This document shows, in pieces, positions 1 through 62,506 of a DNA stretch of 64,000 nucleotides. Where the stretch lies: assembly GCA_009103225.1 (NCBI GenBank), contig RHPI01002699.1, positions 162,578 through 226,577 of the forward strand. Reading direction: 5' to 3'. The notes below the pieces were generated by a model. That model was not told the origin of the DNA. It made no database searches and saw only the letters and a program-made list of their open reading frames with translations. This stretch comes from Chlorokybus atmophyticus. Lineage: Eukaryota > Plantae > Mesostigma and Chlorokybus algae. The translations under genes were made by a program, and so were the position numbers. The stretch's first letter is position 1. Every line of letters starts with the position of its first letter.

Positions 1-46
1 AGCCGAAGAGGCTAACCCGCATCACAAGAAGGCCAAGGCCGATTTT

Positions 47-1084
47 GTGAGAAACAAGCCCACTTTCGCGAAAGCGAAACCCAAGAAGGGAGGGCCTCCG
101 GCAAAGTCAGCCAGCAAGGCGGGGTATGTTAACCTCACCATTTTTGGAGCTGAGAGATTGGCGCTGATGAAGGAAGGGAAGTGCCTCCTCTGCAAGGAAA
201 AGGGGCATTTGATTAAGAACTGCCCTCAGCGCGCCTCCGGCCCCAAATATGATTTATGGGTAGCTGAGCCAGTGAGTAGCACCATAGCTTTTACTTTTGT
301 AAACGGACTTAAGTCAAAATGGTGTAATAAATTGCCTTTTGAATGTGAAGTCTGTTTGGGAAATGCAATGTACCAACTGCCAAGTGTGATAAATTTAGAA
401 CCACATATGCAAAGTGTTCTAATTCATGGGGCTACTTTAAAGCTTAAAGATTCAATACAAGTGTATTGAGATCATAAAATAAAGAACCCCGGAGTAAAGG
501 CAGCTGTGTTAACTCCGACATACAAAGGCAATTAGTTCCTTAAACCAAGCGGTTTCACCAAAGCTGGTACTCTAAGTAAAGAAGATTCCTTCCATGGGAA
601 GTCGCTGGTTATATGGACAGATGAGCTCAGCTATTGAGTGAATGAAGAAATGGTAAGTACCTTGGAAGGTACAGCGCTAGGTCGCGAAATAGGAGTCTTA
701 ATTAACTCAGGATCAACCAAGAATTTAATCGATCGCCGCTTAGTCCGAAGTATAAAGGTAGAAACCACTTCGGCCTTGTATGCGGACATAAGCAGTGTTA
801 AATTACCGAATTTGGGCCAAGTTGATATGAAAGTCCAAATAGACGATTATACCGAAATGATGGTATGCCAAGTTATCAAGATGCAAATACAGAATTTGCA
901 ATGGGTACTTCGTACCGATTGGTTATGTCAAACCAAATCGATAATGGATTTTGAGAAAAGAATATGTTGGGTGAAAAAGGGTGAACATATATTCACTCTA
1001 CCCTTTTCTCAGAAAATAAGAACTCCGAAGATGAGGATTCAAGATTACTTAGTAGCGCAATGTAACCTAGCGCGAGTTACTTAG
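47..1084 (+). pseudogene. Chromovirus gag C-terminus (CCHC knuckle) + extra ~125-aa domain + aspartic protease, one frame with nonsense stops
   Basis: CLLCKEKGHLIKNC fits CX2CX4HX4C. VLINSGSTKNLI is the retropepsin D(S/T)G motif with D>N. ORFs 47 and 638 are in the same frame, separated by stops at 467, ~533 and 635. Confidence 0.85.
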
Positions 1085-1143: not shown

Positions 1144-3974
1144 TTGCATGCTTTACCTCCGGTGGTACAAAAGAATAGAGACCTTTTCATAGACACACCT
1201 CCCACGTTACCGTCGGAACGAGAGATTTGGCATACCATCCCATTAAAGCATGAGACGCCTCCCCCGACGCGACCACTCTATAGGTTAAGTCCTATAGAAT
1301 TCGCGGAGATGGAAAAGAACCTGAGTGGGTTATTGAAAAAAAAATGAATAGAGCCAAGTATTTCACCGTATGCGGCACCTATTCTCTTTGTTCGAAAGCC
1401 ACATGGTCGAGGGCTACGCATGTGCGTAGACTGTCGTTCGTTAAACACGAAGATGATACAAAACAAGTACCCTATTCCCCGAATTGACAACATGTTTAAT
1501 CAATTGAGAAAGGCGAACGTTTTTAGTGCCCTTGATTTAACAGCGGGGTATCATCAGATTCGGATAACACCGGAGGATGTCCCCAAAACCGGTTTCAAAA
1601 CACCAAAAGGGCACTATCAGTATAAGGTTTTGCCTTTCGGCTTAACAAATGCCCCCGTTACATTCCAAGCGGTTATGAACCGCATACTAGCACCATTTAT
1701 TAACAAGTTTGTGCTAGTATATCTAGATGATATATTGGTCTATAGCGTTAATGAAGAAGAACATGAGTATCACCTACAGTTGGTGTTTGAAACCTTGAGA
1801 AGGCACAAATTGTTTGCGTGCCTTGAGAAGTGCCAATTCTTTAAGAAAGAGGTCCTGTACTTAGAACACATTATCGGCAATGGTTCAGTAAAAGCTGACC
1901 CCGCGAAAGTCGCGATGGTTCGTAATTGGTCAAGACCAAGCAACGCGACTCAGTTGAGGCGTTTCTTGGGACTTACGGGCTTCTTTCGTCGATATATGGT
2001 GGGCTACTCAACCATGGCTTCTCCATTACACAAGTTATTATGTGATGGTGCCAAGTGGAATTGGGACTTAAACTGTGAATCGGCGTTTCAAAGGATTAAG
2101 CAATTTTTGTTAGAAGCGCCAGTACGAACTCTACCGGACTTCAAAAAGCCATTTCAAGTTATTACCGACGTCAGCATAGTAGGTACTAGTGCAGTATTAC
2201 TCCAAGAAGGGAGACCGGTAGCGTTTGATTCACATAAATTTACTGATGCGGAAAGGAACTATACTACTAACGAGCAAGAATTATTAGCGGTAATTCATGC
2301 ACTCACTCGGTGGCGGTGTACTTGGAAGGGGTAATGTTTATGGTCATCACTGATCACAACCCTCTCATATATCTTCCGCAACAACCCAACTTGTCAAGGC
2401 GGCAAGCTAGGTGGGTTGAATTCCTATCGCGATTTGACTTTCAATGGCAATATAGGGCAGGTCGCATGAATGTGGCGGACCCTATAAGTAGGGGGCCCCA
2501 CTTAGTCGCGGTGACCTTTACGAGAAGGTCTAACATATGGTCAGTTCCTTTGGAAGAAAAGATAAAGGAGATATACCAAAGCCACGAATAGTTCGCGAAT
2601 TTGGAAAAGAACACCTTAATTTATGAAAATGAATTATGGTATAACGACAACGCAGTGGTTGTACCTAACGACGCCGAATTAAGGCGCGCATGTCTTTCCA
2701 AATTGCATGACCCGCCTGAGCGCGGGCATTTTGGCGAAAAAAAAACCGTTCAGTTGGCAAAGAGGACCTTTTGGTGGCCTACTGTTTCGAAAGATGTAGA
2801 GAATTATGTGGCAACTTTTCATAACTGCCAGAGAAACAAAACTTCACATAAACATAAGGCCGGCCCTTTGGTTCCTTTGCAAATTCCAGAAGAACCTTGG
2901 TCTTCAGTTGGCATAAATATGATTGAGGGAATGCCAGAGACCAAGAGCGTTTATAATACAATAGTTGTATTTATCGACCGCTTTATCAAGATGGTACACA
3001 TGGCACCTGGTTCTAAGGATACCGGTGCAAAGGAGTTACAACAAATCTTCTTAAGGGAAGTATTTAGGCTACATGGTTGGCCTAAGGAGGTTGGAACCGA
3101 TAGAGACATTCTTTTCACTGCGCCCTAATGGAAACAATATAGTGAGTCAACAGGCATTACTTGGTGTATGTCTACCGCTTACCATTCACAAACGGATGGT
3201 CAAACGGAGCGCATGAATCAAATAGTAGAACAATGCTTAAGACAAAACGCTTTTCGAATTCTCGTGAGTGAGTGGGACCAATACTTAAGCATTGTGGGGT
3301 TCGCAATAAACGACTCTTATCAAAGGTCGTTGAAGAATACACCGTTCATTTGGAATTATGGGAAACATCCCAAGACTCCCCTAGAAAACTTCACAAGGAG
3401 AAAGACTCCAGTATTGGCGGTAGAACAATGTGCGGCCGAAATGCATGAGGTTTGGCAAAATACCAAGACCTTTTTGCAACAAGCCCAAAGCCGTAAAAAG
3501 GCTTACGCCGATAGAAGCCGCCGTAAAGTAGTGTTCAGTATTGGGCAATTTGTTTTGCTTAGTACGTAAAACGTAAGGCTTAGGAAATGGCGTGACCAGA
3601 AAAAGTTGTGGCCGCGATGGCTAGGGCAGATGCAAGTCCTTAAGCGACTAGGGGAAGTCGCTTGTCAACTTAAGCTTCCAGAGAAACCCACTCCGTGGAA
3701 AATACATGATGTGTTCCATGTATCTCTTTTTAAGGAATATAGAACGGAAGGTCGAAGACAACCACCGCCAAGTCCCGAAGTAGAAGGGGAAATTGGGTAC
3801 GAGATGGAAGCGATCTTAGCTCGCTGTTCCCGGGGCCAACAACGCGTTCTCGAGTATCTCATTAAATTGAAGGGATTAAGTGCGGAGCACAACACTCGAG
3901 TATCAGAGAGGTTTCTCCAAAGTCATTATCATAATTTACTTGATCGATGCGTGCGTACGATTGACCAAGTATAG
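1144..3974 (+). pseudogene. Chromovirus pol: reverse transcriptase, RNase H, integrase, chromodomain
   Basis: RT: SPYAAPILFVRK, LDLTAGYHQI, LPFGLTNAP, YLDD. RH: TDVS..G, NYTTNEQELLAV, TDHNPL, NVADPISR. INT: HDPPERGH..HNC, WSSVGIN, TDRD, QTDGQTERMN. GPY/F-like WPRWLG. Chromodomain YEMEAILA..EYLIKLKG..HNTRV. Confidence 0.93.
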
Positions 3975-4142: not shown

Positions 4143-4155
4143 AAGTGGGGAGGTA
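4143..4155 (+). other. Polypurine tract of the chromovirus
   Basis: AAGTGGGGAGGTA directly before TGTGG (4156), preceded by GAGGACG as in chromovirus 3' ends. Confidence 0.75.
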
Positions 4156-6147
4156 TGTGGTACTTGGCTGACGTGACTGCTATGGCTACGACCGTAATCC
4201 AAAGACCTTGGAATCCATTGACCGTTAAGGGTTAATGAGACGAAATCGAGCTACCATGATGAACTAAGAGTCCTTGAAATTAAATGGATTAAAAGGGGTA
4301 TCTTAACGCATCGTTAAGACCACGAAAATGCATTGATCGTTAAGTATTAAGGTAAAGGCGTTAAAGCGACATACGCCAATACACTGAGCATAGAATACTG
4401 GAATAGATGAAGTATTGTCACGAATTGGGATAAATTGTGACAGACCTCACTCATGGTAGTGTCTTTTACTACCATAGCCTAGTGGTCGGGCCCCGATTGT
4501 TACAATGGTTTCGGAGCTTGACGTCTCAGGTTCAATTCCCGTAGGGGACTGAGGCAGATCCAAGGCAAAAACAAAAACATTTGGGGCGGCTTGCCCTAGG
4601 CTGGGCGCGGGATCACGACCTGCGCGCCGAGCCAGTTCAACCTAAGGCCGCGTGAGCGGTCGCGCTGCGATGGCAGGTCGCGCGGTGAGGATGGCCGTTC
4701 GGTCGGTCAGGACCGTTCGTGGGCCGGATCCAACAGGCCGCGGGCAGACCGATTGTGGTACGGCCGCGAAAACGGCGACGTGGGCTAGTGCCTCATTGGA
4801 TTATGAGGAACTCATAGGTTAAATTGGGGAGGAATGTCACGAATTGGGATAAATTGTGACAGACCTCACTCATGGTAGTGTCTTTTACTACCATAGCCTA
4901 GTGGTCGGGCCCCGATTGTTACAATGGTTTCGGAGCTTGACGTCTCAGGTTCAATTCCCGTAGGGGACTGAGGCAGATCCAAGGCAAAAACAAAAACATT
5001 TGGGGCGGCTTGCCCTAGGCTGGGCGCGGGATCACAACCTGCGCGCCGAGCCAGTTCAACCTAAGGCCGCGTGAGCGGTCGCGCTGCGATGGCAGGTCGC
5101 GCGGTGAGGATGGCCGTTCGGTCGGTCAGGACCGTTCGTGGGCCGGATCCAACAGGCCGCGGGCAGACCGATTGTGGTACGGCCGCGAAAACGGCGACGT
5201 GGGCTAGTGCCTCATTGGATTATGAGGAACTCATAGGTTAAATTGGGGAGGAATGTCACGAATTGGGATAAATTGTGACAGACCTCACTCATGGTAGTGT
5301 CTTTTACTACCATAGCCTAGTGGTCGGGCCCCGATTGTTACAAGTACCTAAAAGGTACCTCACTATCGGAGTTACAAGAACGGTAAATACTATCGGGGAC
5401 TCCGACCTAGTACAATTCTCGAGGTTAGGGATTGTCGAACTATGTCGTAAATCAACATAGGAATTTCCGCAATACTAGTTCACTCCTGAGTATGAAGGTT
5501 GAACGAAAGTGATGTCGGCCTAAACTGAAAGTTATGAACATAGGAGAATCGCATTCGGGGTCGAACTTTGGAATAGATTTCCGATGTTCGCCCAAAAGCG
5601 TTGGCACTTTGGAAAATAGTTTTCGAGGGTCCGATCGGGCGTAATGAACTAACAAAGGCACAGGAACCCCGAAGTACAAAAAGAGGCAGTGCCAAGTAGT
5701 CGGCATTCAGTTGTCTTCAGCCGGTTGCAAGCGGAGCTCTACTGGAGTGAAGGCCGGTACTAAGGGTTAGAGTTCTTGGGTGATCGGAGAGAGGCCATTT
5801 AAGGGAACGCCATATCAAAGCCTTTCCAGGTACTAAGTCATTCACATATATACTAAGATGGTATACTTATGGTTCACTTGGTTACAACTTAGTTGTTGTA
5901 GGGAAGCTGATTGGGTAGTAATCCCTTTTATCTGAGATTGGTTGTTCACACGCCTAAGTGGGTCGATGTGAAGAGGGTACATGTTAATATGCACAAGTGG
6001 CGCATATTTCGAAAGCATCCGCGACTGATAGAATTAGTTCACTTGGCTAATTAGTTCACTGAAATAAATAGTTCACGTTGACAGTTCACTTGGGTTAGCT
6101 CACAAGTGAGTCAACTCTTCACTGAATCATTTAATCAGAGCCTCACA
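4156..6147 (+). repeat. Chromovirus LTR (~1.06 kb once the nested TRIM is removed)
   Basis: Starts TGTGG after the PPT and ends CCTCACA before a PBS-like TGGTATCGGAGC (6149-6160). Imperfect terminal inverted repeat TGTGG/TCACA. The partner LTR is not in the window. Confidence 0.7.
4416..5342 (+). mobile_element. Tandem-array TRIM (LTR-int-LTR-int-LTR), non-autonomous LTR retroelement
   Basis: Three identical 89-bp LTRs (4416-4504, 4835-4923, 5254-5342; TGTCAC...GTTACA) at a 419-bp period. PBS-like TGGTTTCGGAGC follows LTRs 1 and 2. PPT AATTGGGGAGGAA precedes LTRs 2 and 3. Flanking 5-mers AGTAT/AGTAC look like a TSD with one mismatch. Confidence 0.92.
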
Positions 6148-6311
6148 TTGGTATCGGAGCTCGTGGAACATGCATGCTCTCTACTTCTGCTTGGCCTCAA
6201 GCCGCCCATGGTCCCGCACAGTAAGTGTGAAGTTAGTCCCTGGGTGGTGGCTATGCATACTTACAAACTCTTGTACTTGCAGAGCTTGACAGATCACGAG
6301 ATACAATAGGC

Positions 6312-8604
6312 ATGGACGCCTGCCAGGACAAACCCTACCATGATCGGTGCACTACCTTGGATGAGAAAGACATTGCCAACATTTACAAGTGCATTCAACG
6401 CAGTCGGTTGATTGATGGCAATGACGCAGCAGCGGTACACAACATGGTACTGATGCATTCCAAAGGCATTGTGCTACATTATAAAGAGGAAGAACAAACA
6501 GCGCGCAAGCGCACGCCTTTTATGTTGGTCCTGCAGACAGCGTTTCAGCGCGATATGCTATCCACATTTGGTACAAACATAGCCTTGATTGATGCGACTG
6601 GCGGCACCAATAGTTGCGGCTATCGGCTGTACACTCTGTTGGTTAAAGACGACTTTGGCAACGGTCAGTACCGCCCTTATAGCTGCTGGACACCTGACAA
6701 TTTGATAAGACTGTCATGCATTAACTGCAAAACCGATGCTCGCACACGCGCAGGTGTGCCAGTTGCATGCATGGTTACCAATGGCGAAGACCATGAGGTC
6801 ATACTCACCTTTCTTCAGAAGATCAAGAAAAGGACAGGCATGTTGCCAGCAAACATGCTGCTGGACAAGTCTCAAGCTGAGCTAAAGGCGTTGCGGGTAC
6901 TCGGCATAGATCCGCTCCTCTGCTACTTCCACATGCTACAGGATGTTGAGCGGATCCTGCGCAAAAGAGACAACAAAGTGCCGTTACATCTACGACCAAA
7001 TATTATGCAAGTAATAAAGCGCTTGAAACAAAGCAAAGACGAGCTGGTGTTTGAGAGCCACTATACTGATTTCAAGCAGACATTTGCACACCTGCCATTG
7101 CTGATAGCCTACATTCACAATGAATGGTACAAGTGCAGAGGTATGCAGCGTGTGCGCACCACTGTTCAAAGCCAAAGAAAGTAGCTAACTGCTTGTTGCA
7201 TGCAGTGCAATGGGCAGACTTTGGGAGGCAGTTTCAACACGAGCGCATTGAAACAAACAACCACCTTGAACGGCTTTTCCATTCCTTGAATTATGGCTAA
7301 AAGGCAAAGTGAATCGCAGAATCTCAGCTTGTTCAGACTATCCTTGATGACATTGTTCCATTGTAATACCGTCAACGGCAACGCAAACTGGATGGCCGCA
7401 TTGGCAACCGAGAAGAGCAGCAGCAAGCTAAGCGTAGGCATGACGTTGCGTACCTGAAGACTAGCAACGCCATCACGCTTGAAGACCATGTGCTTGGAGT
7501 GTGCAGTTGCCCAAGCATGAGTAATAAGGATGGCTTATACGCTGATGGTAGCTGAGCTGCTATGCGAGTGCCCGGCTTCCAATGTGCATGGGCATCTTTC
7601 GAAGCAGCTCTCGCGGCCTGCCCGTTGACGATGAGCATGAGAAGGTATGTCAAGGACTGCATCCTCCTGCCCATCTATGGTACTTACTTTGCTGTTGTCA
7701 TGTAGGTGGCGGCAACGCGCTTGCTTGAGGAGGACCTTGTGCAGCAGCATGCTCACCTGCAAGGCCTGCTTGTAGTCAACAATCTGCTCGGGAGCGACAA
7801 GCAATATGAGTGCAATGTTGTTGCCAAGTTCTGCACATGCATCGACTGTGACACCAACTCAGTATGCTGCCATCTGATGGCGGCGATGACGAACATGCAG
7901 ATGAATGATGTTAGGGAAGGTGCTGGCTCTACATGCAACAGCTCTGCATTGACCGTTCACGTACATACTGATTCACCATGACAACACCTGACTTTCCGTA
8001 CACAGGGTTGGAAGCTTGCGGTGAGATGGCATCAGAGCGTGATGGTGTTGAGGCCACCACAAATACTGAGCCCCTCACCAACGTTGACATCCATGAAGAT
8101 TGTGGACGGCACACTTTGGAAAAGCCCCTCACCAACGAGCCAGTTGCTGGTAATCTGACCCATAGCATGAGTAGTAGATGCCATGCATGCTTGAAGCAAC
8201 ACGAGTACTGCATAATATGCACGCTTCAACTCTGTATTGATATGCAGAGAGCGACGATGTTGCAAACACTATAAGACGTACCTTGCTAGCTATCAAGCGG
8301 CGTGTCAAGTACATAACCGGGATAACAGCACTTGACTTGCAAGACGAGCTTGCTGCCATTGCGGCTCGCATTCAAGCAAGTGTGCCTACGTTTGAAAGCA
8401 CGCAAAGACAGCATTAGAAGCATTGGACCCGCAAGAACAAGGGTAGAGTGGTGCCCCTCCTGTATGCGGTGCGTGCAAGCACACAACGAGCAAGCCAGAC
8501 AAGCACTACGGACTCTAGACCAGCACGCAAGCCACCAGCAGTGCACATACCGCGGTTTGCTAAGTTTCAAGGTTCGGGAAGACCAGCTTTTATCGGCGCG
8601 GTAA
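6312..8604 (+). mobile_element. Mutator-like (MULE) transposase with SWIM finger, spliced, frameshifted
   Basis: IDATGGTN..GY.L, LLDKSQAE, LCYFHMLQ (CxxH), and after an intron ETNNHLE (third acidic residue). SWIM motif CTCIDCDTNSVCCH at ~7830-7875. Introns at 6664-6753 and from 7141. Frameshift near 7295. No TIRs located. Confidence 0.88.
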
Positions 8605-9413
8605 CGTTGGTACCTTGAACAAAGGGCCAAGCAGCACCCAAGCGCCATCCAAGGCAAAAACCAGCAGACCCTACCGCTGGTTTGCATGAAAGCCAGCCCT
8701 CTGCCTCCATGCCAACAGACACAGAGATCGACAATAGTCCCCCATCACATGCGCGGCCATGCTCAGAGCACACAGCATGATTGGCGAACACCTCCGCCAA
8801 AGCTCAACCCATACACGTACGCACACCGCCACCAGCACAGTCCCCGGCATTGAAAATTGCGATAAAATGCCGTGAGAGCTTAGAGGAACAAGCCGTTAAG
8901 TTGATGCAGTAGGAAATGGTGATGATGAATGGACCAACTCATAATGTAAACTGGCATAATTATCTACATACAACCACAACTCAACTATGTTGAGCCAGTG
9001 AGCTACAATCAAACTAACAAAGCCATCGTACTGGTGCTGCCTGGTCTGGTCGTCTAGGCCACTGGCAGCAGGTGCGGCGTTGCTGTCGCTGTAGCGCTGG
9101 TCATGGTCCGCCCTCGCCACTCCACCTGCTATCCGCCCACGCCACGCCGCCTCACCACCGCCGTCGCCGCCGCCGCTGCCAGCCATGTGGGCAACGCGTA
9201 GCGACCAAGGCATTTTGATCCACCGTAGGCGGTGAATCACATCGCGGCGGACGGTGAACTACTACTGCTTTAGTTCACTGCCGACGGTAGTTCACTGTAC
9301 TAATCGCGTCCTCACGGTGGAGGACGCGCTGAGAGGATGCGGGAGTTTGAGCATTGGTGCTGAAGCCTATCAGTGCTGTAGCGAACTGCGCCGCAACCCT
9401 GGTGCGACCCATC

Positions 9414-10680
9414 ATGTTTGTCCCGGCGGCGGCAGGGCCGGCGAGGTCTTCTTCGGAACCGTTAGGCCTAAAGGCCAGCATCATGCTAATCATCTTGGGT
9501 TGGGTGGGTATGTTGGTATGGTTGGTGTGGCTGATTTGGGGCAGGGAAGACACCTACGGTATGACTAGCCGCTGCGTCGTCACCCTGGACAACACCACCA
9601 CCACCACCGCCACCGTCGTCGCCAGCCTCGCCACCGTCACCGCCGCCTTCGGACCGCCGCTGGCCCAGGGCGGCGTCCGTGGCGTGCTGTACCAGCTCAC
9701 GCCAGCAGACGGCTGTAGCCCTGTCGCTCATGCCGACAAGGACGGCGATGCCTGGATCGCCCTCGTTGAGAAGGGCAACTGCGGCTTCCACGACAAGGTG
9801 TTCAATGCACAGCTCGCCGGCGCTGCCGCCGCCGTCGTCTACGACAATGAGGACGCCGAATCGCTTGTGCTCAGTAAGGGTTTCGCTCTAGTAACTGATG
9901 TTGCTTGCATGGTTGTCGTTGCTTTGGTTGTGTGTATGGCATGTCCTTTTTGTGCACATACAGTCTCTGCAACGTTTGCTGAGTTTGACTGAGGCCACAC
10001 GTGCCAGTCTTCCACATCAAAAAACATAGATGTGATTATGCAGGCATGTGGTTGCAATTCATAAGACAATGCAGGTTCTTGCTGCATGACTTATGCGATG
10101 ATGTTGTGTTATTGCACGCATGCATTGTTAACATGGTTGTGTGGACACGCGTCATGGCTTTCTAATTGGCACACAAAAATTTGCTTAAACCAATGCGCTT
10201 TTTGCCCTTGCAGTGACCGCAAAAGATGCGAGTGATATCCACATGTCATCCGTGTTCACAAGCAAGCAGGACGGGCAGCTTCTGCATTTTATCACTGCGA
10301 GCCAACAACAAGGAGAGCGTGTGATGGCGGTGCTCGAGCCCGACATAGATTACGTGGTCCCGGATCGCATCCTAACTTGGATACTGACTCCCATATTTGT
10401 TTTTGGCTTCATTTTTTTCACAGCAATGGGCGCTGTGGGAATTCGTGAGGACCGTCTTCGTCGCATTCCAGTGAACACGCCAGCGGACGAGAAGGATGTG
10501 GAGGATGTTGTTGTTGTCAACTGCGAAGCAGCTGCTCCCCCTCTTGCATCGGCTGTGACAAGTGATGGCCATAGCAAGCTTGAACAGGGACAGAGGGCAA
10601 TGAAGTTGGATACAGCGCCCTTGCTGCAAGATTGTGAGTGCCAACAAAAGGGCGACACCCCACCATTGTACCGTCCTTAG
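9414..10680 (+). CDS. PA-domain single-pass membrane protein (RMR/RNF13-like luminal domain, no RING), copy A; exons 9414-9873, 10214-10680
   Basis: AAFGP..G.L..LTPADGCSP..WIALVEKGNCGFHDKVFNAQLAGAAAAVVYDNE is a typical protease-associated domain. N-terminal hydrophobic segment plus a TM segment in exon 2. GTAAGG...TGCAG intron restores A|TG in frame. Confidence 0.85.
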
Positions 10681-11373: not shown

Positions 11374-13612
<2,239 letters not shown>

Positions 13613-21668: not shown

Positions 21669-22871
21669 TCACTTTCTGTTGATTTCACGACCTTGCAGCA
21701 AGGGAGCTGTCTCCAGTTTGGTCATTGCCCCTTCTCCGTCGTCAAGCTTGCTGAGGCCATCACTCGCACCAACTGATGCAAGCGGGGGGGCAACTTTGCA
21801 GTTGACAACAACAACGACATCCTCCGCGTCCTTCTCATCCGATGGCGTGACAAGCTTAGGAGGAAGACAGAAGAGCAAGCCTATTGCTATGCATGCAATG
21901 CAGAAAAGAGACCATATCAGAGCCCCTATCACATGCACTATGCGATTGGCAACAACGTAATATACGTCGGGCTTGAGCAGCGCTGTCACACGCTCTCTTT
22001 GTTGGTTTCCAGCGACGATTAAGTGCAGAAGCTGCCCGTCCGCCTTGCTCATAAAAACGGTTGACATGCGGATACCGCTCGCATTCTTGGCGGTCACTGT
22101 TTGCGCAACAAGGTTTGGTTAGTGCAGCTTTGTGTGTGCCAACTTTAATCGACCATGACCCGTGTCTACACAGCCGTGTTGATGCACGCATGCACAACAG
22201 ACCCACAACTCATGTTTTTCAATCGCCACCACACATGCTTGGAAGATCACAATTTGCTTGTTTGTATTATCAATATTTGGCACATATGACCTTGGACAAA
22301 CTTAGCAACGTCATATACGCTATATATGTACCAAAGCCACAACCATGCAAGCAACATCAGTAACGACACCCACAACAACCCATGGCGCAGCTCACGCTAG
22401 AGTGAAACCCTTACTGAGCATAGGCGATTGGGCATCCTCATTGTCATAGATGATGGCGGCGGCAGCGCCGGCGAGCTGGGCGTTGAGGACCTTGTCATGG
22501 AAGCCGCAATTGCCCTTGGCAATAAGGGCAATCCAGGCGGCGCCGTCCTTGTCTGCATGAGCGGCTGGGCTGCAGCCGTCTGCTGGCGTGAGCTGAAACA
22601 AGACGCCTTGCACGCCGCCTGGAGGCAGCAACGGGCCGAAGGCGGCGGTGACGGTGGCGAGGGAGGCGACGACGGTGGTGGTGTTGTCCAGGGTGACGAC
22701 GCAGTGACTCGTCATACCATAAGTGCCCCAATCCCGACGCACGCACACCCACAAACCCACCAAACAGAACCAACCCAGGAAGAACATCAAGCGACCGCAG
22801 CATACCGGTTGCCACGGCGACGGCGACGGTGTCGGCGGCGGCGATGTCGCCGCCGACACCTTGCCCGCCAT
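21669..22871 (-). CDS. PA-domain single-pass membrane protein, copy B; exons 22871-22415, 22096-21669
   Basis: Same PA motifs (WIALIAKGNCGFHDKVLNAQLAGAAAAIIYDNE), same intron position (A|TG) and same GACCCATCATG start context as copy A. ORF intact. Confidence 0.85.
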
Positions 22872-23162
22872 GATGGGTCTGTTTGAGCAAGCAGTGCCAA
22901 GCCTGGCCGAGGCCAGAGCGACGTACCGGAGTATCCGTACCGGAATAGTTATGATCCTCACATCTCTACTCCAAGACTTACCTACCGGAGCACATTGTAG
23001 CGCCGCATCAAGAACAGAGGACGGATTTGCCCAATATCGAGGGAGCGTGTAGTCACGCGTTGCCGCGCTGACGCTGTCGGCAACGATGGTGGCGTTATGG
23101 ACGGTTGGATACCGCGTTATTGCATGCACTAACGTGATGGCGTGCTACGTGCGTTCTTTGGT

Positions 23163-25903
23163 ATGTCGGCAGCATGGCTGAGGGTGTGGGCGGTGGCTGC
23201 TGTCGCAGTGGCGATGTCGGCGGTGGCCTTGTCGGTAGCTGCGAGGTGCAGCGTACCGTCTAGCACGGCTTTGCTGTCTAAGAAGTGCCTTTACCGCCGC
23301 CCGTCCTGGTTGCGTAAGAGCAGCTGCGGAGTCTGCCCAGGCTTCTCGTCCTCCTCCTCCTCCTCCTCCACCTCCGCCGCCGCCTCCATGGCGACGTCCG
23401 CAAGCACCGGCACCGCCAAGCTGGAAGTTGAGCTTGTGCCGTGCCTGAAGGACAACTACGCCTACTTGCTGCATGACAAGGAGGCCAATGTGACGGCCAT
23501 TGTGGACCCATCTGAGGTATTTTGAGCTAGTGTCTCCTCTTTGGGGTTTGCCTGCAGCTTGCACACTGTGCTTTTCTGTGTTGTGTGTGTTGCTTTTGCT
23601 GTAGTAAATAATATCGGACACTTGCAGGCAGACTTGTGCACAATGCATGCATGCATGCCTCGTGCGCATGTACACATGCACTTATGTATGCATGGTTGCA
23701 TTTATACGCACTGCGCAAGCACACTTGCAGCTTCAGCTGGTGGCATGTGCAAGCATCTGCATGCATGCATTCATTCATTCATGCATGCATGCATTCATAC
23801 TGCTGCATGTGCTTGCACGCTGCAGAGTCAGCTGGTAACATGTGCGACAAGCGTTGACAAACAGCAACTTCAGCAAGCTATGTGACTGCATAGTACAAGC
23901 TTAGTACAAGCACGCATGCATGCATGCATGCATGCCAATCATTTCATCAAGTTGCAGTACATAGCTACTAAACAAACATCTTTCTTGTCAAAATCTTTGC
24001 CATGTTTCATTCACAGCATCCACTGCATCCCGTGCAGGCCGGACCCGTGCTCGCTGCACTGGAACGGCGCGGCTTGACACTCACGCACGTCCTCAACACG
24101 CACCACCATTGGGACCACACCGGCGGCAACCTGGACCTGAAAAAGGTGCCATGACAACACACTTCTTCGGTATAGTAAGTAGTGGATATGCACAGCATAG
24201 CAACAAGAGTACAAGCAAAGTGGAAGTGGTGCATTAGTGCCCTACACTACATGGCAAAGGAGTATTGCATGTACTAGACGTGCACGATTGGCAGTGCATA
24301 AGTAATGCATGCACTCAATCGCACACACTCGAGTGTAAGTGTAGTATGCACTTTGTGTTGTGGCGTCTGGTCGTCAACTGTTATGCACACCTTGTGTGTA
24401 TGACATGTGCGTGCGTACAGATGTGTGCGTGCAGGCAGCAAACTTGATGTGTGTGCTGACTGTGTGAACACAATAGGCATGCATGCAGTGCCAGTGTGGT
24501 TTTGACAGCAAGCTTGTTTGCTTGCAGAAAGGCGGAGTTCAGATTGTCGGGCCGAAAGCAGATGAGGGGCGCATTCCCGGCATCGATATCGCTCTCGCCG
24601 ATGGTGAAGTCTGGCAGTTTGGGAATCATGCGATGCACGTGTTCGACACGCCAGGGCACACAAAAGGTGCGAGATAGGGAGAACACCGTCACTGTTGTGC
24701 GGGTGTGCGTGTGTGCGCAAGTGTGTGGGTGCTTGTGTGAGAGGGCGGGCACCCGCAGCCATTTACACGTGTGTGCTTGTAGGCCAGCATGCACATGTGT
24801 GCACGCACACGTAACTTACATAAGCGCGCACGCATGCACACATGTGCAAGCACATTCATGCGTCTGCACGCCTGTGTATATATGGCATGCATAGAGAGTA
24901 AGTGCATGCAACCTACCTCATGCGCGCGAGTGCGCGAGCGCATGTGTGCGTGACATCAACCAAACGTTAATGTGATGTGTGCCATTGCTCTCAGGCCATG
25001 TGAGCTTTTACTTCCCTGACCAAGAAGCCGTCTTCACCGGCGACACATTGTTTGCGCTCGGGTGCGGCCGATTGTTTGAAGGCACAGCAGAGCAGGTGAA
25101 CAGCAACACTTGTATCATATTACCCTTGTTGCTTGCTTACTTTACATCGCATTGACTGCCAATCTTCTATGTTAGATGTGGGCTTCATTGTCAAGACTGG
25201 CTGCGCTTCCGCCCAGCACGCGGGTGTTTTGCGGACACGAGTACACTCAGGCAAGAGCCAATGGTTGTTGGTGTGTTGTTGGTGAAGCAATGGTTTGTAT
25301 ATGCATCAGCAAGTGCATGTTTACACGTACATGAGCGGGAGCGTTCACATACAACACATGCACACATAGATCAGTGCCAATTTAACAATGCCCTGCTTGT
25401 GTGTGCATGCGCATACACACCAACAGACCCATGCGCGCACACACACACACACGTGTATATGCAATTGCATACAAACATGCATGCACAAACATAAACAGGT
25501 ACAGGTACAGCTTGCACGCCATTCTGAAGCTGAACCCATATCACAGCCACACACGCATATTGTTTGTTGATGGTTACGTTGTGCTTGGCAGTCCAATGCA
25601 AAGTTCTCCTTGGCGGTTGAGCCCAACAACGCCGAGCTCGTGGCACGCGCGAAGGAGATCGACTCGTTGCGCAAGCAAAACAAGCCTACGGTAAGCCCAC
25701 ATTATTCACCACACTTCGTACACATATGGCTGGTTGCTTATAGATATGATGCGCAGATTCCAAGCACAATCGGCATCGAATTAGCAACAAGCCCCTTTTT
25801 GCGCCCTTCGAGCGAAGAAATCAGACGCAACGTGAACGTGTCCGCGTCGGCCGATGACGTGGCCGTGTTCGCGGCTGTGCGGCGCAAGAAGGACAACTTT
25901 TAG
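23163..25903 (+). CDS. GLX2: Hydroxyacylglutathione hydrolase (glyoxalase II), organellar form with transit peptide; 7 exons
   Basis: [25 protein letters not shown] metal motif, [41 protein letters not shown]. Ser/Ala/Arg-rich N-terminal extension. Confidence 0.96.
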
Positions 25904-41472: not shown

Positions 41473-44400
41473 TCAAGTAACCAGCAGCTTGCCGAGGCTA
41501 CTGATATCCAGAATCTTGATATCGAGGTTCTCGTCCAGCTTGACAATGCCATCAGAAGCATCAATACCAATCAGTTTGCCGGTGTGGCCTCGCAGATCAC
41601 CCGCAAGCACCTTAACCTTGTCGTGCTTCTTCGGCGGCACGAGCTCAAGGTCACCGACACTCACTGTTATCTCCTCTGTTTGCTCCTTCTCCCCGAGCGC
41701 TACTGTACAGCTGCCATTGTCTTGGACCGCACGCACCACGCCAGTTTGTCGCTCATGCGATGGCCTGTCCACAATGACAAGGATGCCCGGCATGGGCCGC
41801 AAGTCTGCAGCACCAACCGCTCCACCCATTCCTGAATTGGACCAACACATTGAGTTTCAGCACAGGCCATGTAATGACAGCAACTCACACACACGCGCAC
41901 GTGCGCACACCATCTACGCACACGTTGCAAGTGTGAGCCACATACCAGGTGACATGATGTCGAGTGCGCCTGCACCCGGCGTCGAGGGAGTGGCAGGGTT
42001 GTAACCGACGGTTGTTGCGCTGGTAAAGCCTGGTGTAGACGGCGTAGCCGGGTTGTAATTCGCCGTGCCAGGATTGTAACCACCTGGCGTTGAAGGCATG
42101 CCATAACCGCCGGCTTGCCCGGGATACGGCGATCGCGCTTCTGCCATGCCAGGTGTGGGGGCATTCCAAGGTGTTTGCGCATCATAAGCCCGAGCCCCAG
42201 GTGTTCCTACACAGAAAGAAAAGCACATAAGCACGTTGTCATACAACTCAAGTACACACTGCTTGAGTAAACTCATTACAACGTGAAAGGGACTGAACTG
42301 GCAACAGCCATACCTGGATTGTGGTCCATGCCAGGGGTGCCTACTGGGGCGTGTTCACTCGGCGTGAAGGGCGGGTACATGTTGTAAGGAGTCTCAGCAG
42401 CCTTGTAGCCTGCAATGGGCCCGCCGGGGCTGTTGCCCCAACCGCCGGGCATCTCATAATCCGAGTCACGAACGGGTGTCGTTGGTCTGTAAGGATGATA
42501 CGGCTGATCTATTGTGTGTGTCGGCGTCTCGCGCACCGGAGTCTTCATGTACGACGGCGTGTCGCGAGCGGGAGTGCGGCTGCCCATAGGCGTGTAGTCC
42601 CGAGCCGGCGTCTGCGGGTACTCTCCAAACCTGCCATGCGACGAGCGGCCCCAACCCTGCTGTTGTTGTTGATGTTGCGGCTTCTCATCTCGGGCGGGTG
42701 CTACAGGCAATTGGTCACGCCTCACGCTAACCGTGCGCATCTGCGATTCCAACTCGAGACGCACGGTGGAATCAGTGGCATCCACAACGCGGCCGGTGTA
42801 ACCCTTCCACGGCCCGGACTTGATCTTGAGGGATTTTCCGATGATAGGGTCTGTGTGATGGCCACGCCCCATGCCATTGCCTTGAAAGCCGCCTCCGCGG
42901 CCAAACCCACCTTGCCTTCCCGGCGTGCCGTGTTGTGTAGGGGAAGGCATCGATCCCGCCATGCCCCCCATCATGCGCGACGGCGTCATAAAGCGTGCCG
43001 GCGACTGAGGCACAAACATGCCGTTGCCGTGCGCAGGAAGGGCCGCGTTGGTGGTCTTTTGCCCGCCCAAAGCTCGGCACAACTTGGCACGCACGCACAC
43101 GATGCCTTGGTTCTCTATCACCTCCCTTGATTGCAGAAACAAAAAACCTTTCTGGATGTGCCGCACTGTGCCCTGCACAACAATACAACATCAACTTATC
43201 ATGCTTGTTGATACAAGTAATGACTGAAGCAATCGACCAACAGATAAGCGCTGCATAAAGCTTGCATCCATGTCTGATACACCAGAAGGGGTAAGAGTGA
43301 GCATGAGGCCTTACCGTCTTATTCTTCATAGCGCCATCAACAATCCGTACGACATCGTCTACAGCAATGGTGTTCATGTAAGCGTCCTGCGTGGTGTACT
43401 TCTTTGAGTACAGCTTGCGCTGAATCTCAGGCAGCCTCACTGTTCGGATATCGGGCCGATCAGGTGTTCCATTATTCGTGAGCACCTGCAGAATTGTTAT
43501 GTCACATACCAAGGCTAAGAGAACAAACAAAACAACCACGGGACACAATTTTGCCAAATACACACTTACAAAAGTCCCATTGTGTGCACACACACCTGGC
43601 AGGCTTCTTTTTCAACTTTGATAATCATTCCGAAGGATGAGTTATCCAGAAGGACAAGGTCATGAAGTTGGAAATTGCCAAAGGTATCGAAGCCGCCAGT
43701 CACTTCTGTACACTCGACCACATCCCGGGCAAACACCTCAATATTCTTCATGGATACATCTGACAGGATGACCAGCACGTTGTTGTGCACGTGCACGACC
43801 ATCCCCGTCTCACTTTCATGACGGCCAGCCAGCACCTTCACGTGGTCCCCGGTGTCAAAGTGCTTGCGCAGCTGCTTGGCTGACAATGAAACCGCTTCCT
43901 GTCACGCACACGCGCAGATCAACATTGAGGTACAAGCAACTTACATGCTTTCCAACTGTTGCAGAGCTGGATTACGCACATGTACACACACCTTGAGGCT
44001 GCCGTCTTTCGCAGAGATGGTGACTTCATCACCATCAACTTGCTCCACTTTGGCTTTGAGCGATATGAGGTCGCCCTCAATGACAACCACTGTGTCGCCC
44101 TTGACAAAAGAAACTTTGGACTGCTGGCCAGTGGGAGGCAGCGCCTTGGACATACCTGTTTTGCCAAGTAAGCAAGCATCGCAACAATTGATGCTACCAA
44201 GGATCATATCAAGTGTCACGTACCCGCAAGATCCATCCCTCCGCCCTCACCGTCGGGGCCTTGGAACTTCTGCAGCTCTTCGTAAGTGGGACTGATGTCT
44301 TTGGTATTCTGAACACATGCACGTTGTTCACAAGTATAAGCGCTGGGCGAGCAGTAAAGCAAGCACTGCAGATGGGGTGAAATACAAAGCATGACAACAA

Positions 44401-46537
44401 CTTACACAACTCTTGAGGGACACGATCTTAATGACGTATCCCTTGTTGAAGCGCTGATTGGCAAAGATTTCATGGTAGTCACCCGTAATGTTATCACGGC
44501 GGCGATCAAGTGGTAGACCGAGGTCTCTGCCATTAGCGAAAAAATAAAGGATCAAGGTCTGCAGAATACAAGTGAAATGCAAGCTTTTCACTTGTATTCA
44601 CAACCAAAGTGCTTGTGAAATAACTTACTTTGCATCCTGTGCGTTGAATAGACGCTGAGGAGGCCGAGGCCTTTTGCGGTTTGCATAATCCTTATCATCC
44701 TGAGAAAGTTGCCAGTTTCAGACACTTGTGACTCCATGTCCATTGATTGCGGCTGAGTTCAACTACATACGCAAACACTTACGGCCTTGGCTGCAATTGC
44801 AGCAAAATCCAAGCGTGGCACAAGCTTCACCGTGCAGCGTTGACGCACATAGTCCACATCAAGAACCTGAAACGCGCCAAAGGTGTCAAAGGTGTAAGCT
44901 CCTGTTCTCCCAAACAGTCAAGAGACTTGAAATTGGACACAATAATCTGTGCACACCTGTCCAAGATCACCCTTGTATGTCCCGTTGCGAATGCGAATCC
45001 AAGAGCCTTCCTGCAGGTTCGCGTCTTTCGCATTCACGTTGAGGACGTCCACCATCTCACGAATGGGAACAAGCTTCGGTGGTTTATAGTAAAACATGCG
45101 CAGACCAGTGGTTGCCTGCCAAGCATACCAACTGAGGATCAAAGCCGATGTAAAGTAAAGCTTGGCTCTATAATGACTTACACAACATAGTCACGTGTGA
45201 ACACATAGTTGCGCCTGTGTAGGCATACAAAATGCTGGCGCATGTCCTCACCGATCGCACATGGGACTCTGCGTATGCCTCAACGTAAACGTATCCCTTG
45301 AGGTGGTCCAGTGCAATTGCGGACTTGATGAGGAGCGGCTCCCCAGCCGCAGCTTTGTCAAGAAATTTCTGCATGAGGCAGGCTGCACCCTCTCTTTCAT
45401 GACCAGTCTGTACCGGGACAAGTTTAGTAGGCCCATAACGCAGCATTGCACAACAATCTCACGCACTGCTGCACGGACTGCTGCACGCATGCACATGCAC
45501 ATACACACCACCTGGGCCTGATATCACCTTGCAGCCGACCATCCACAACTTGGGGTCCTTGACGGAAGGAAACAGACCTTGCTGCTCTACTTCAGAGCGC
45601 TCAGCATCGTCCATCTCCTGATACCTTGCTGACCCGTACCTCTCCTCAATAAACTTCTGGATCTCCTCATCATTGTCCTCCTCTCTGTTGCGCATGTCCA
45701 TGCGTTGATGAACACGAGAGACGGGCTCTGCCAGGCTTCCGGGCAAGTCTGCATCGCGATCATCGATGAGATCCTCCGCGTCCTCCTCCTCTTCTTCCTC
45801 ATCGCTTTCTGCAACTGCGGCAGTATCATCAATGAAGGGATTGGCGCGGGCTCGCTTGCGCCTTGTTGTGCCATCCTCCTCATCATCTTCGTCTTCATCG
45901 TCATCTTCCTCTGCGGCCTCATCAAGAAACTCTGACCTGCAGTACGCAAGGCAACCAACTTTCAGGAAAAGTTTGCAAACAACCTTCAAGGCTTGCACTG
46001 TAGGCATGGGAAAACAGCCAGATTGGCAGTCATATCTTGCAACTGAACTACGCCCAACATCCTGCAAGTATGATACTAGCAACGAAAATTTGCAATGTTC
46101 AAGCACACAAGCCAGCTGGCTGGCGTGCTTTGTATAAGCTATGCATACAGTAAGCTGTTGTAGTTACTATGCTTGACATTGTGCATGCATATTGCGGTCG
46201 GCTAGTAATATTCACAATGCGGTTATTGAGAGAATAGAGCTGCCAACTTCAAGATGGTCTACAAGTTGAAGTAAAGCGATTGAAGCAAAGTGCAGCAGAG
46301 AGCTAAAAGACCAGCAAGACTGAGTTACCGTTTGCGGGATTTCTGCGCTTTAGCTGGTTGCTTGCGTTTTGAGGCTTTAGGCGGCGCTTTCGACGCCTTC
46401 GACTTGCTCTTCTTCTTATCATCCTCATCGCTCGCCTCATCCTCGTCGCTGAACTCCTCGTCCTCCTCGTCCTCCTCCTCCTGCTCCGACTCCTCGTCCT
46501 CGTCGTCGTCAAACCGGCCCTTGCCCTTGCGCGCCAT
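41473..46537 (-). CDS. SPT5: Transcription elongation factor SPT5 (acidic N-terminus, NGN, KOW domains, CTR)
   Basis: Acidic N-terminus; PSVKDPKLWMV.CK; LKGYVYVEAY; GSWIRIRNGTYKGDLG; FVKGDTVVVIEGDL; FDTGDHVKVLAGRHE; IKSGPWKGYTGRV; TP-rich CTR (RTPARD, YNPATPSTPG); C-terminal KOW KHDKVKVLAG..GKLIGID. Confidence 0.97.
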
Positions 46538-51300: not shown

Positions 51301-53306
51301 ATGAAATCAAGCCAGGTATCGTCAGCTGTGTCCATGGCCTGCAGTTGCACACAAGTCGTTAGTATGGTCGAGCTCACAAGTTATTGGTGTAGGATGGCCA
51401 TAGCACGGAACAGCAAGCAACTTACCCATGCAGCAATGCCAGCACAAAGCTAGCGGACGATGCACACAGCAGGCACCGCCACATCACCTGCATGCAGTCA
51501 ACGTTCAAGTGTCTTGCAACAGTTTGCTGTCGGCATTTGATGAACTACATGGCGTTGCTATGCAGTATAGCACCACATACCTTACGCGACCAAAACGAAG
51601 CTGCCTCTTCCAGCGCAAACAACACGCCTCCTATGGGAGCGCCAAAGGCAGCAGCAATACTACAATGAAGTTCGGAGGTTAGACTGCCAGCAACTTTACA
51701 AGTGTTAAAAATACAACAGCAATGCATACCCTGCAGCAGCTCCAGCAGACAAGAATTCCCTTTGATCCTCGTCCTTGTGAAAATCCTGCACACACAAGTC
51801 CAATGCCTCAACAGTACATCTTGTTGTGCACATCTGCACCTAGTTATGTACCGCATGCAAGTGAGAGAGACTGATGGCGATCGGAACGACTCTTTAAGGC
51901 AAAGGTGTTGTGCATGAGCTTACAAAGAGAAAGCTTGGCCTCGTGACTGTTTGCGCCACACTGTGTGTGGCTTGACAGTCTGGACTGCTGCAGTCAATAG
52001 CGTGACCCACTGAGGTATAAGGCACTGTTGTGGTTGCACGGCGTGGAGACCACACAGTGGTGAAGAATGATGCAATGCAGGTGCCAATCTGCACCATCGG
52101 GCCTTCGGGGCCGACCTGCAAGCAGGTGCAGAGAAACATCAACACAGCAATGGATGTGTTACAACATGGGAGAGAAGCAACCAATGTCGCATCGACAGAC
52201 ATGTCCTGGATGGGCGGGCTTACAGGCAAGGAAGAGGTCATGCTGCATATGGTGCCCACAATCTGCACACAGGTGCTTCAGCATTATATACAAACACTGC
52301 TTACGACATTTAGCAACGGCGACCAGTCAACGCTGAACACCTTAACGACTAGGGTGCGTGGCCGTAGAAAATCTGGCACATGCGCCCCATTGAGGTAAGC
52401 CATGACTAGTGTGACCCCACCGCCAGCAGCTGCAGGCGCCACAAACAGCACCTGGGGTGGCAGCACATGAACAAAGCAGCACAGACTACATGCAAACATG
52501 TATCTCGCCAGTTGCTTACCAGGAAACTTGAGAAAGAAACCAGGGCAAAGTCGAAAGCTACAAACGCCACAACTGCTTTCCACAGGCTTTCTTGCATTGC
52601 TACCAATGTCCATGCATTCTGCGTGGTATCCGGTATCAGCAACTCACGCATTGTTAGAGTCCAGCTGGCAGCGGTGTTTGATGTTACCTTCGTGAGCTCA
52701 ACTTGCCGGGCTGTCCACTCTATAACAAAAGCCACCACGCCTGCATACACATGCATCGCTGCAACCATTTGACAAGACACACATAGCACGCCACCCGCAA
52801 CATTGTAGAGAATAGACAACTGCTTACCTGTCAACACTCCAATGAGGAACGTAACACCCCACTTGGCCAGCGTGTTCCCAGTGTAGCTGCGAGGTGCATG
52901 CATGCAATGAGTGGCTATGCAGAAGGAAGGTTCGCGTCAACCCCAACTTTTACAAGTCAACACAATGCTGACGTCAATAGGTGTTACGCTTCGATCACGC
53001 TGGAAGCAGCAGGTAGCAAGTGGAGAACGAAAGCAAGCACGATTACGCTGCGAGAAGCATGTTTACAGCATACAATTGCGTTGCATAACATCTGTCCACT
53101 CACCCATAGAACCGGCGGGGCATCTTGCTGAACTTGTGGGCTGAAAGGGTAACTGAGCCAACAACATTCTGCACCGGTTCATAGTCTAAGCTCTCTATGA
53201 CATTGGTGTGCTCAGTCCGCCTGACGGGCCTCCTGCGTCGCGCAGGGCGCCCGTTCATCAGCAGCGGAGTGTTTAAAATTGCCGCCTCCATGTCCTGTTC
53301 CTCCAT
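48384..53306 (-). CDS. CLC: CLC anion channel/transporter (CLC-d/CLC-6/7-like architecture) with two CBS domains
   Basis: IESLDYE, KWGVTFLIG..TG, GGGVTLVMAYLNG, GPEGPMVQIG, AAFGAPIGGVLFALEE, VPGGLFMPSITVG, CBS1 HNGFPV..GFILRSQL and CBS2 VGIITRKDL. Start at 53306 is inferred. Confidence 0.93.
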
Positions 53307-56037: not shown

Positions 56038-56744
56038 CTCTTTGCTCAAGTGAGTGCGTTGCATTCTACATCAGATAGTCCAGTCTGTATCTGGGGACAC
56101 ATCCATGTGCATTCGTTGTTACTGTCATTACATAGTGCGCACACAAGCAGACTAGTGCGGTGAGTGGTAGCGGCATCGAGACAGGTAGTAGAGCACAAAC
56201 ACTCTACCCTGCATACACTTTCACCTGTGGACTAGCTGTATGAGCAGGCCCAATAGACGAGGGTGACCTCAGCAGCTGGAGCCCAGCCTCCAACCTCACC
56301 TACGAGCGGACCAGCGACGGGAGCAACGATCGTAGCAACAGAGGCTCGCGCCCTGTTTCCGACTTCACTCTGTTCCTGTCCACTCCTCGGCATCGAGCTT
56401 TCCCACTCTCGTTCGACAGTGACGACTACGAGACGAAGTCTTCAAGCTCAACCACATCCCTGCGCTTTTTCGGACGTGCTGGCACTACCTCACTGGACGA
56501 ATTCATCATTAAGTTCCATTTCAAGCTGCGACAGCAGGCTCTGCAGAACAAAGACTGGTCAGATGAGATTTTTTTTCACATTGCTGCTCAGTATCTGGAC
56601 CATGAAGCACATGATGTCTGGAAGTCTGTTGCTCAACTGCATCGAATTGATAGCTATGGCGAGCTCGCTAGTACCATAGCATCTGCATCACTACACATTC
56701 CAGCAACCGTCTTTTCACCTGCCCCTCCCGCTGCAGTCACCGGG

Positions 56745-57815
56745 TTGTTTATAGCGGCAGCCATTGACAGAGCAGAGGAGGAGGAAACTGAGTCGGTGAT
56801 TGTCAACCTGACCCTTGCAGAGATTGAGATCAAGACGGCTGCGCGACGGGCCCGGATCCTGGATTGTTCTGCTGGCATCCCTGAGGAACAACGAGCTGCA
56901 GCCGTCGAGGTGGGCACACCCCTACCTTTGGCAACACCTGGCTCTCGTGCGGGAGGCAGTGCTTTCACCCTCGGGTCAGTCGCACTGCGCGCACCAGCCA
57001 TCACTGTAGGTGCTGCCATCTCTGACTCTCCACTCAAGGACCTATACGCTGCACTTCGTTGCACCTTCCCACCACAGACCACTAGTATAGTGGAGGAGTT
57101 GAGGCGGTCCCGACGCAAACCCAACAAGGACCCCCTACGCCTATACTTCAGACTGCAAGGGCTGTTGAAGGACACTGACCACAAGATTGTCAGTGACGAG
57201 GCTGCTGCAGTGGTATATGTCAATAAGTTGGATGCCACCCTGAGCGAGTCGACGCGGTTGACCCTGAGCTACAGCAGGCCCCTTGGCTACATGCTCAAGG
57301 AAGCTTGTGAGACTGCACAAGCCATCCATAAGCGCTTGGTGTATGAGAAGGCAGTGCTGGACACCAACCGCAGCGCCTCACGGCCTGTAGCCAGCACAAC
57401 TGCTGAGCCTCCTCACCGCGAATGTGGTCGGGACGCTCCACCTGCTCGCGACAAAGGGAAACAGTCAGCGCATACGGCTTTGCCTGCCCCTGTGCTGTGT
57501 CATCGCTGTAGACGGCATGAGCACTGCCAAAAGGAGTGCACCGAAGAGTACTCAACTCTGGTCTGGTGCAACTATTGTCACAAGACAGGCCATTTGGAGT
57601 CAGTCTGCTGGCTCAAGTTCCCTGAGTTGAGACCCGCCAACAGCTACAACGGCAACAGCTCTGGTAGCTACAACAGCAACAACACTGGAGGCCACAACGG
57701 CAACAACTCTGATGGCTACAACAGCACCCACATTGGAGGCCATAACAACACCAACAACCACGCCAACGCTCGCAAGGAAGAGCAAGGCTACAGGGGGAAG
57801 AGTCGCCCTCTTTAG
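56745..57815 (+). pseudogene. Gag (capsid-like region and two zinc knuckles) of the second gypsy element
   Basis: CHRCRRHEHCQKEC and CNYCHKTGHLESVC; an upstream frameshifted gag part lies at ~56420-56660. Confidence 0.8.
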
Positions 57816-58449
57816 CGCAAGGGACTGGAAGGACGACCGCGCGCTGCTGCTGTTGCCGCCAAAGCTACAGTTAACCCGCCAGCTGATGACCATATGGCTG
57901 CCCTCATGGTGCGTATGGCACGCTTGGAGGAAGACAAGGAGCAGGACAACCGCGCCTGCTACTCTGCCCGATGGGCACTAACGGCTCCGAAACGCACGAG
58001 AGACACCAGCACTCCGTCACGTATTCAACCATCCCGACGGGTTCGAAGGGAAGCCGCAACATCGTCAGCAGCTACCTTCTCTGAAGCCACCAGTGGTGCT
58101 GCACCAGCAGCAACAGCTACACCGGCTACGACGTCGACTCCGTCAATGTCAGCAGCAACTGCTTCAATTTCACCAGAGGTTGGTATACCAGTGAGCACCG
58201 CAACGCCAACACTGGTGAGCACGCTGGCGACAGCCACTGCTGTCACCGACCCTGCAAGAGTAGGTCGTACCGGTCCCGCCCCAACTGCAGGACCACCTGT
58301 GTCATCAAGTGTTGAAACCACACTCGCGCCATTGAGCGGCACTCTCGCCCACACCGGCAGTGCCATCGTCGAGCCTGCTGCCACTGCAGCGGGGCGCGCA
58401 GCTACATTACCGGCCCTCGACGTCACTCAAGCTGTCCCGCAAGGTTTTT

Positions 58450-62450: not shown

Positions 62451-62506
62451 CTTACATAGCGGGCTTTGCGCGCATCCAGCACTCTCGCCCCGCCCGCAGC
62501 ACATGC

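What the first reader, a model, noticed from the sequence alone, without database searches (positions are those of the whole stretch)
251..622. Extra domain between gag and protease of the chromovirus resembles a decayed N6-adenine (Dam-like) methyltransferase
Seen: a ~125-aa segment, in frame with both gag and protease, reads DLWVAEPV..TI...PFECEVCLGNAMYQ...QSVLIHGA..LKDSIQVY*DHKIKNPGVKAAVLTPTYKGN*F...F..AGTL..EDSF..KSLVIWTD. Ordinary chromoviruses have no globular domain here. Inference from remembered patterns: it follows the layout of retroelement-borne N6-MTase domains (DW.l...F..D.c..G.Na; vw.NPP(F); Y..K...P..a..lvP.W..W; pv.vw.D), with the catalytic NPPF replaced by IHGA. If right, both gypsy elements in this window carry methyltransferase-like modules of two different classes.
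Basis: inference. Interest (0 to 1): 0.7.

Follow-up and report, generated by a model that had tools for sequence, protein, structure and literature searches.

The report
Eroded adenine-methyltransferase domain in dead chromovirus
A broken copy of a gypsy-type jumping gene likely carries, just before its protease, a worn-down adenine-methyltransferase-shaped domain; this class of element was described in 2026, but most relatives sampled here have also lost the catalytic motif, so the domain likely no longer works as an enzyme.

Summary
The segment is real. Bases 251-637 read in frame between the gag zinc knuckle and the protease of a dead chromovirus, with three stops. On its own it matches nothing (Pfam, PHROGs, PDB, 1.84 billion representatives). 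Of 120 listed RT relatives, 50 have over 100 residues before the protease, and 39 of these share one domain there. A profile of that domain scores the segment at P=1.4e-5, above 2000 of 2000 shuffles; the match covers only the 40-residue core. An intact relative's domain folds well (pLDDT 87) and matches phage Dam-type methyltransferases and PCIF1/CAPAM (Z 10.3). The catalytic motif is eroded across the sample: NPP in 2 of 39, full NPP(Y/F/W) in none, also in full-length multi-member families. So IHGA likely predates this copy's death. DAM-carrying chromoviruses are in a May 2026 preprint, and this scan found them on other genomes before. The extra here is a large motif-eroded population that Pfam misses. 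The claimed methyltransferase in the second element was not confirmed.

The parts
2..250 (+). 3' end of gag with CCHC zinc knuckle (179-229); the element's 5' part lies outside the window
   Evidence: Pfam zf-CCHC_2 E 1.8e-5; GC 0.54 against 0.385 in the next segment
251..637 (+). Eroded N6-adenine methyltransferase-fold (Dam/PCIF1-like) domain, in frame with gag and protease, three stops
   Evidence: fold taken from an intact relative
410..529 (+). Core that aligns with significance to the family profile (motif-IV strand, helix, next strand)
   Evidence: hmmsearch residues 54-93, 11.0 bits; hhalign residues 48-114, E 1.4e-4, probability 52.5
425..436 (+). HGAT in the columns of the catalytic NPP(Y/F/W) motif
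650..1000 (+). Aspartic protease; Asn in place of the catalytic Asp at 704-706 in this copy
   Evidence: Pfam RVP_2 E 7.4e-6; related contigs differ from this copy at 704
1162..2531 (+). Reverse transcriptase and RNase H, with one stop and a frame change near 2316-2331
2547..3944 (+). Integrase, SH3 and chromodomain (3798-3944), three stops
4143..4415 (+). Purine run and likely start of the 3' LTR, interrupted at 4416 by a nested repeat
   Evidence: Read from the sequence; boundaries inferred

Best explanation
The segment is likely the dead remnant of an adenine-methyltransferase-fold domain that this chromovirus clade carries at the front of Pol, just before the protease, and that had likely lost catalysis before this copy broke. 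Shown: this copy is broken, the segment matches the clade domain, an intact relative is predicted to have the Dam/PCIF1 fold, and the catalytic motif is eroded across the sample. Inferred: in active elements the domain is made with Pol, packaged into the particle and cut off by the protease. It would act there as a non-catalytic binder of the element's own RNA or cDNA, the role Iyer et al. proposed for inactive DIRS1 methyltransferases. Odds: identity about 0.85, non-catalytic parent family about 0.7, nucleic-acid-binding role about 0.3.
For: 39 of 50 informative relatives share the domain at this position. The segment scores P=1.4e-5, and 8.5-12.4 bits across 10 leave-group-out profiles; the most divergent true members score 12-15 when left out. 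The window's RT falls inside the domain-bearing clade (99 SH-aLRT), in a set of 18 rows with 4 domain bearers and 1 non-bearer (96). The P0091 domain folds at pLDDT 86.8. Top Foldseek hits are CAPAM/PCIF1 (E 5.8e-4) and phage DNA N6-adenine methyltransferases (named best E 3.8e-5, TM 0.68). VIA-align gives Z 10.3, rmsd 3.3, 136 aligned to CAPAM. PHROG 111 DNA methyltransferase hits 1 of 36 members at E 9e-6. Asn is at the catalytic column in 11 of 39, NPP in 2 of 39, an aromatic at +3 in 1 of 39. Eroded motifs are shared within clusters: HAPP 5 of 5, IDS 7 of 9, NVQ 7 of 8. HGA needs at least 4 changes in 9 bases from NPP, while related contigs differ from this copy by about 3-10%.
Against: The segment alone has no hit anywhere and its single-sequence model is poor (pLDDT 40). 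hhalign probability is only 52.5 local and 7.7 global. Smaller profiles of tree neighbours are weaker: 5 and 6 of 5000 shuffles reach the score. Best pairwise identity to a member is 21%. Motif-to-protease spacing is 93 residues, below the members' 99-179. The fold was predicted for a relative, not the segment. The window's RT is a long branch on a quick tree. The domain changes faster than the protease (0.56 against 0.63 identity in 13 close pairs; 0.18 against 0.29 in 429 distant pairs). No function was tested, and intact frames in relatives are partly a result of searching called proteins.
Confidence: 0.6

Rival explanations
1. The parent family had an active DNA adenine methyltransferase that marks new copies with 6mA, as the 2026 preprint proposes, and the motif was lost only as this copy decayed.
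For: The copy is clearly damaged, even at the protease's catalytic residue. Some relatives keep NPP or NAP. The preprint reports conserved NPP and more 6mA on DAM-LTRs in ichthyosporeans and Euglena.
Against: At least 4 changes in 9 bases are needed against 3-10% divergence from related contigs. Full-length relatives carry IHAP, close to the window's IHGA. The preprint's own E. coli assay found no added 6mA.
Confidence: 0.12
2. The domain is of methyltransferase origin but is now only a folded spacer or relic ahead of the protease, drifting under weak constraint with no binding role.
For: Median identity among members is 17% and no column is invariant. It evolves faster than the protease. Some elements inside the clade lack it.
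Against: Non-catalytic positions stay conserved (S 82%, C 79%, T 77%, P 72% of 39). The domain persists at near full length across lineages whose RTs are only 60-65% identical.
Confidence: 0.18
3. The segment is unrelated sequence whose short match to the family is chance.
For: No direct database hit; only 40 residues align with significance; low global hhalign probability.
Against: 0 of 2000 shuffles reach the score; it is the best tile in the window and lies exactly where relatives carry the domain; 10 of 11 non-member upstream regions score below 1 bit. A related contig covers 587-740 with 4 differences.
Confidence: 0.1

Closest known systems
Chlorophyta DAM-chromovirus-like clade of DAM-LTR retrotransposons (Fernandez-Moreno et al., bioRxiv 10.64898/2026.05.21.726589; whole main text read, figures and supplements not visible)
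   Same: Ty3/gypsy element with chromodomain and a Dam-fold domain in the polyprotein; nearest named RT relatives are green algae.
   Different: The preprint found its elements by a DAM profile at E 1e-5 and reports a conserved NPP. Here no Pfam Dam hit appears in 36 scanned domains and NPP is kept in 2 of 39. Its text does not state the domain's position in this clade (the word protease does not occur).
DIRS1-type retrotransposon methyltransferase domains of the PCIF1 clade (Iyer et al., PMC4738411; passages read)
   Same: Polyprotein-embedded N6-adenine methyltransferase related to PCIF1, described as likely inactive and perhaps binding the element's transcripts. The best solved match here is PCIF1/CAPAM.
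   Different: Those sit in tyrosine-recombinase DIRS elements; this one is in an integrase-chromodomain gypsy element, before the protease.
Phage Dam-type DNA N6-adenine methyltransferases (PHROG 111) and PCIF1/CAPAM
   Same: Predicted fold of the relative P0091: TM 0.6-0.7 to phage Dams, Z 10.3 to CAPAM.
   Different: These are stand-alone or WW-fused enzymes; the canonical catalytic tetrapeptide (established knowledge) is missing from the window copy and incomplete in all 39 relatives.

Membership tests
Chromovirus (Ty3/gypsy with chromodomain) | Order gag, protease, RT, RNase H, integrase, chromodomain | tested here: met
   (Chromo E 4e-5, just under Pfam's cut-off)
DAM-LTR / Chlorophyta DAM-chromovirus | DAM profile hit at E 1e-5 or better | tested here: not met
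   No Pfam Dam hit for the segment or 36 relatives' domains at E up to 1; 1 of 36 hits PHROG 111. The preprint's exact profile is not named in its text.
DAM-LTR / Chlorophyta DAM-chromovirus | Conserved Asn-Pro-Pro catalytic triplet followed by an aromatic | tested here: not met
   Window HGAT; NPP in 2 of 39, none with a following aromatic
DAM-LTR / Chlorophyta DAM-chromovirus | Dam-type fold within the polyprotein | tested here: met
   Met for the relative P0091; carried to the window by profile homology only
DAM-LTR / Chlorophyta DAM-chromovirus | Placement in the preprint's chlorophyte DAM clade on DAM and RT trees | not testable with these tools
DAM-LTR / Chlorophyta DAM-chromovirus | Chlorophyte host with AMT1 and 6mA on the copies | not testable with these tools
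   No genome held; host lineage not settled
Active N6-adenine methyltransferase | Acidic SAM-binding residue after strand 1 | tested here: inconclusive
   D or E in 6 of 39 relatives; the window has FECEVC by eye, but this part does not align with significance
DIRS1-type elements | Tyrosine recombinase instead of DDE integrase | tested here: not met
   Integrase zinc finger, SH3 and chromodomain found

The most novel reading that the evidence does not exclude
A large radiation of algal chromoviruses has turned a captured Dam/PCIF1-type methyltransferase into a conserved pseudo-enzyme, invisible to Pfam screens, that binds the element's capped RNA or cDNA in the particle. DAM-derived LTR elements would then be far commoner than reported, mostly non-catalytic, and possibly present in streptophyte algae, since Closterium RTs nest inside the domain-bearing clade.
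Probability: 0.25. Interest if true: 0.6.

Novelty: new variant of a known kind. Interest (0 to 1): 0.3.

Why it matters
The copy itself is dead and ordinary. The family pattern bears on a fresh claim: the 2026 preprint says retrotransposon DAM domains keep their catalytic pocket and help copies gain 6mA, yet its enzyme assay was negative. Here most sampled relatives keep the domain without the motif and escape Pfam. That suggests undercounting and a non-catalytic role, which dN/dS, binding and deletion tests can address.

Tried and rejected
Direct searches with the read-through segment or the gag-segment-protease protein found no relative of the segment: word-index searches, 1.84 billion representatives (13 hits, all knuckle or protease), PDB sequences, Pfam, PHROGs, metagenome contigs. 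The family profile found nothing in PDB sequences, and tblastn of P0091 against phages gave one RT-region hit. The single-sequence model was too poor to search with. The Atlas gave no usable hit for the relative P0152. No host genome is held, so copies could not be aligned. No RNA holder was listed. Contigs of two runs cover the flanks but not 256-586; a hole proves nothing. Seventeen Closterium proteins do not reach the protease, so they could not be tested for the domain. Host lineage could not be fixed from window genes. No complex was predicted, as no binding partner is claimed. Four paper searches listed no paper describing a motif-eroded gypsy DAM population; the preprint's closed supplements may show one.

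Full report
Observation. Pfam gives a CCHC knuckle, protease, RT, RNase H, integrase zinc finger, SH3 and chromodomain in order, so the element is a chromovirus. It is dead: RT and integrase carry further stops and a frame change, and the protease has Asn at its catalytic position, where related contigs differ. The element's 5' part lies outside the window and no host genome is held.

Direct tests failed. The segment alone matched nothing in Pfam, PHROGs, PDB sequences, two word-index searches, 1.84 billion representatives or metagenome contigs. Its single-sequence model had pLDDT 40.

Relatives. A search with the RT listed the best 120 of 5985 hits, most at 53-59% identity near the top; the named close ones are from Haematococcus, Closterium and Chromochloris, and most are unnamed environmental records. 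A protease was found in 71 of 120; 50 have over 100 residues before it; 39 of these 50 share one domain there, 10 do not and 1 is borderline. The 70 others were uninformative and were dropped. The four land-plant proteins among the 50 lack it. A profile of the 39, built without the window, scores the segment 11.1 bits (P=1.4e-5) against -1.4 reversed and at most 7.7 in 2000 shuffles. It is the best six-frame tile of the window, and stays at 8.5-12.4 bits in 10 leave-group-out profiles. hhalign gives E 1.4e-4 but probability only 52.5, and 7.7 in global mode; profiles of 4 and 11 tree neighbours are reached by 6 and 5 of 5000 shuffles, and a 15-member profile by none. Only the core at 410-529 aligns with significance. 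On a quick tree of 109 RT rows the window lies, on a long branch, inside the domain-bearing clade.

Fold. An alignment of 36 of the 39 domains gave a model of P0091 at pLDDT 86.8. Foldseek's top solved hits are CAPAM/PCIF1 (E 5.8e-4). Its top viral hits include several DNA N6-adenine methyltransferases (best named E 3.8e-5, TM 0.68). VIA-align ranks CAPAM first (Z 10.3, rmsd 3.3, 136 aligned), with KsgA, E. coli Dam and T4 Dam below. One of 36 members hits PHROG 111, DNA methyltransferase, at E 9e-6; none hits Pfam Dam.

Catalytic state. The window's HGA falls in the NPP columns. Among the 39, Asn is kept in 11, NPP in 2, and none has NPP followed by an aromatic. The best-kept columns are structural, around P-x-T-S-A-C. 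Eroded motifs are shared within multi-member clusters that include full-length Pol proteins. Turning NPP into the window's codons takes at least 4 changes in 9 bases, while related contigs differ from this copy by about 3-10%, and relatives with IHAP exist. The erosion thus likely predates this copy's death. The domain evolves faster than the protease, which leaves a relic reading open. None of 71 domain-bearing proteins has a knuckle in the same frame upstream, so the in-frame gag fusion here may be family-specific or a result of damage.

Mechanism. Inferred, not tested: active elements make the domain at the front of Pol, package it, release it by the protease, and use it as a non-catalytic nucleic-acid binder. 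This follows the proposal of Iyer et al. for inactive DIRS1 domains of the PCIF1 clade (PMC4738411, passages read) and fits CAPAM as the best solved match.

What is known. The preprint 10.64898/2026.05.21.726589 (whole main text read; figures and supplements not visible) describes a chlorophyte DAM-chromovirus clade, conserved NPP, a negative E. coli assay and absence from Streptophyta. Earlier notes of this scan report the same design on other genomes, two between gag and protease and one with an eroded motif; these are unchecked leads. The window's element fails the profile-hit and NPP criteria, so I file it as a variant, not a member.

Second element. Its stretch at about 58460-58900 recalls the last motifs of a cytosine methyltransferase, from my memory only; no database confirmed it. 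De Mendoza et al. describe gypsy elements with Dnmt3 in Klebsormidium (PMC5890265, passages read).

Verdict. A real, correctly guessed but mostly known feature in a dead copy. Interest 0.3, carried by the family-wide motif erosion.

Noticed in passing
window 4416-5342: Three 89-bp TG..CA repeats with two identical internal parts, a primer-site-like and a purine-run sequence, and nearly identical 5-bp flanks: likely a tandem miniature LTR element (TRIM) nested in the 3' LTR. A contig in run X2 reads on at 4414 like window 5348 onward, as an empty site would.
   Followed up: partly
window 56244-62600: A second, broken gypsy-type element with a long gag-like frame, RT, RNase H and integrase, a stretch at about 58460-58900 recalling a cytosine methyltransferase (recall only, no hit), a Cys-rich PHD-like end near 62500 (by eye), and an insertion at about 60230-60700 splitting RNase H.
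   Followed up: partly
P0035, P0052, P0057, P0065, P0079 (tree): Closterium (streptophyte alga) RTs are sister, at 97 SH-aLRT, to five elements with the eroded domain. Their proteins do not reach the protease, so the domain could not be tested. The preprint reports no DAM-LTRs in Streptophyta.
   Followed up: partly
window 246-251: GC content drops from 0.54 in gag to 0.385 at the start of the segment, marking the gag-pol junction.
   Followed up: no
P0102: A related element carries a NUDIX domain between RNase H and integrase (E 1e-11).
   Followed up: no
window 6237-7184: MULE/SWIM-type transposase fragment.
   Followed up: no
window 9351-9992, 22392-23144, 25571-25903, 41473-46163, 51545-52277: Host genes: two PA-domain genes in opposite orientation, a hydroxyacylglutathione hydrolase, SPT5 and a CLC channel; a (GA)n run of about 630 bases at 11560-12190.
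   Followed up: no
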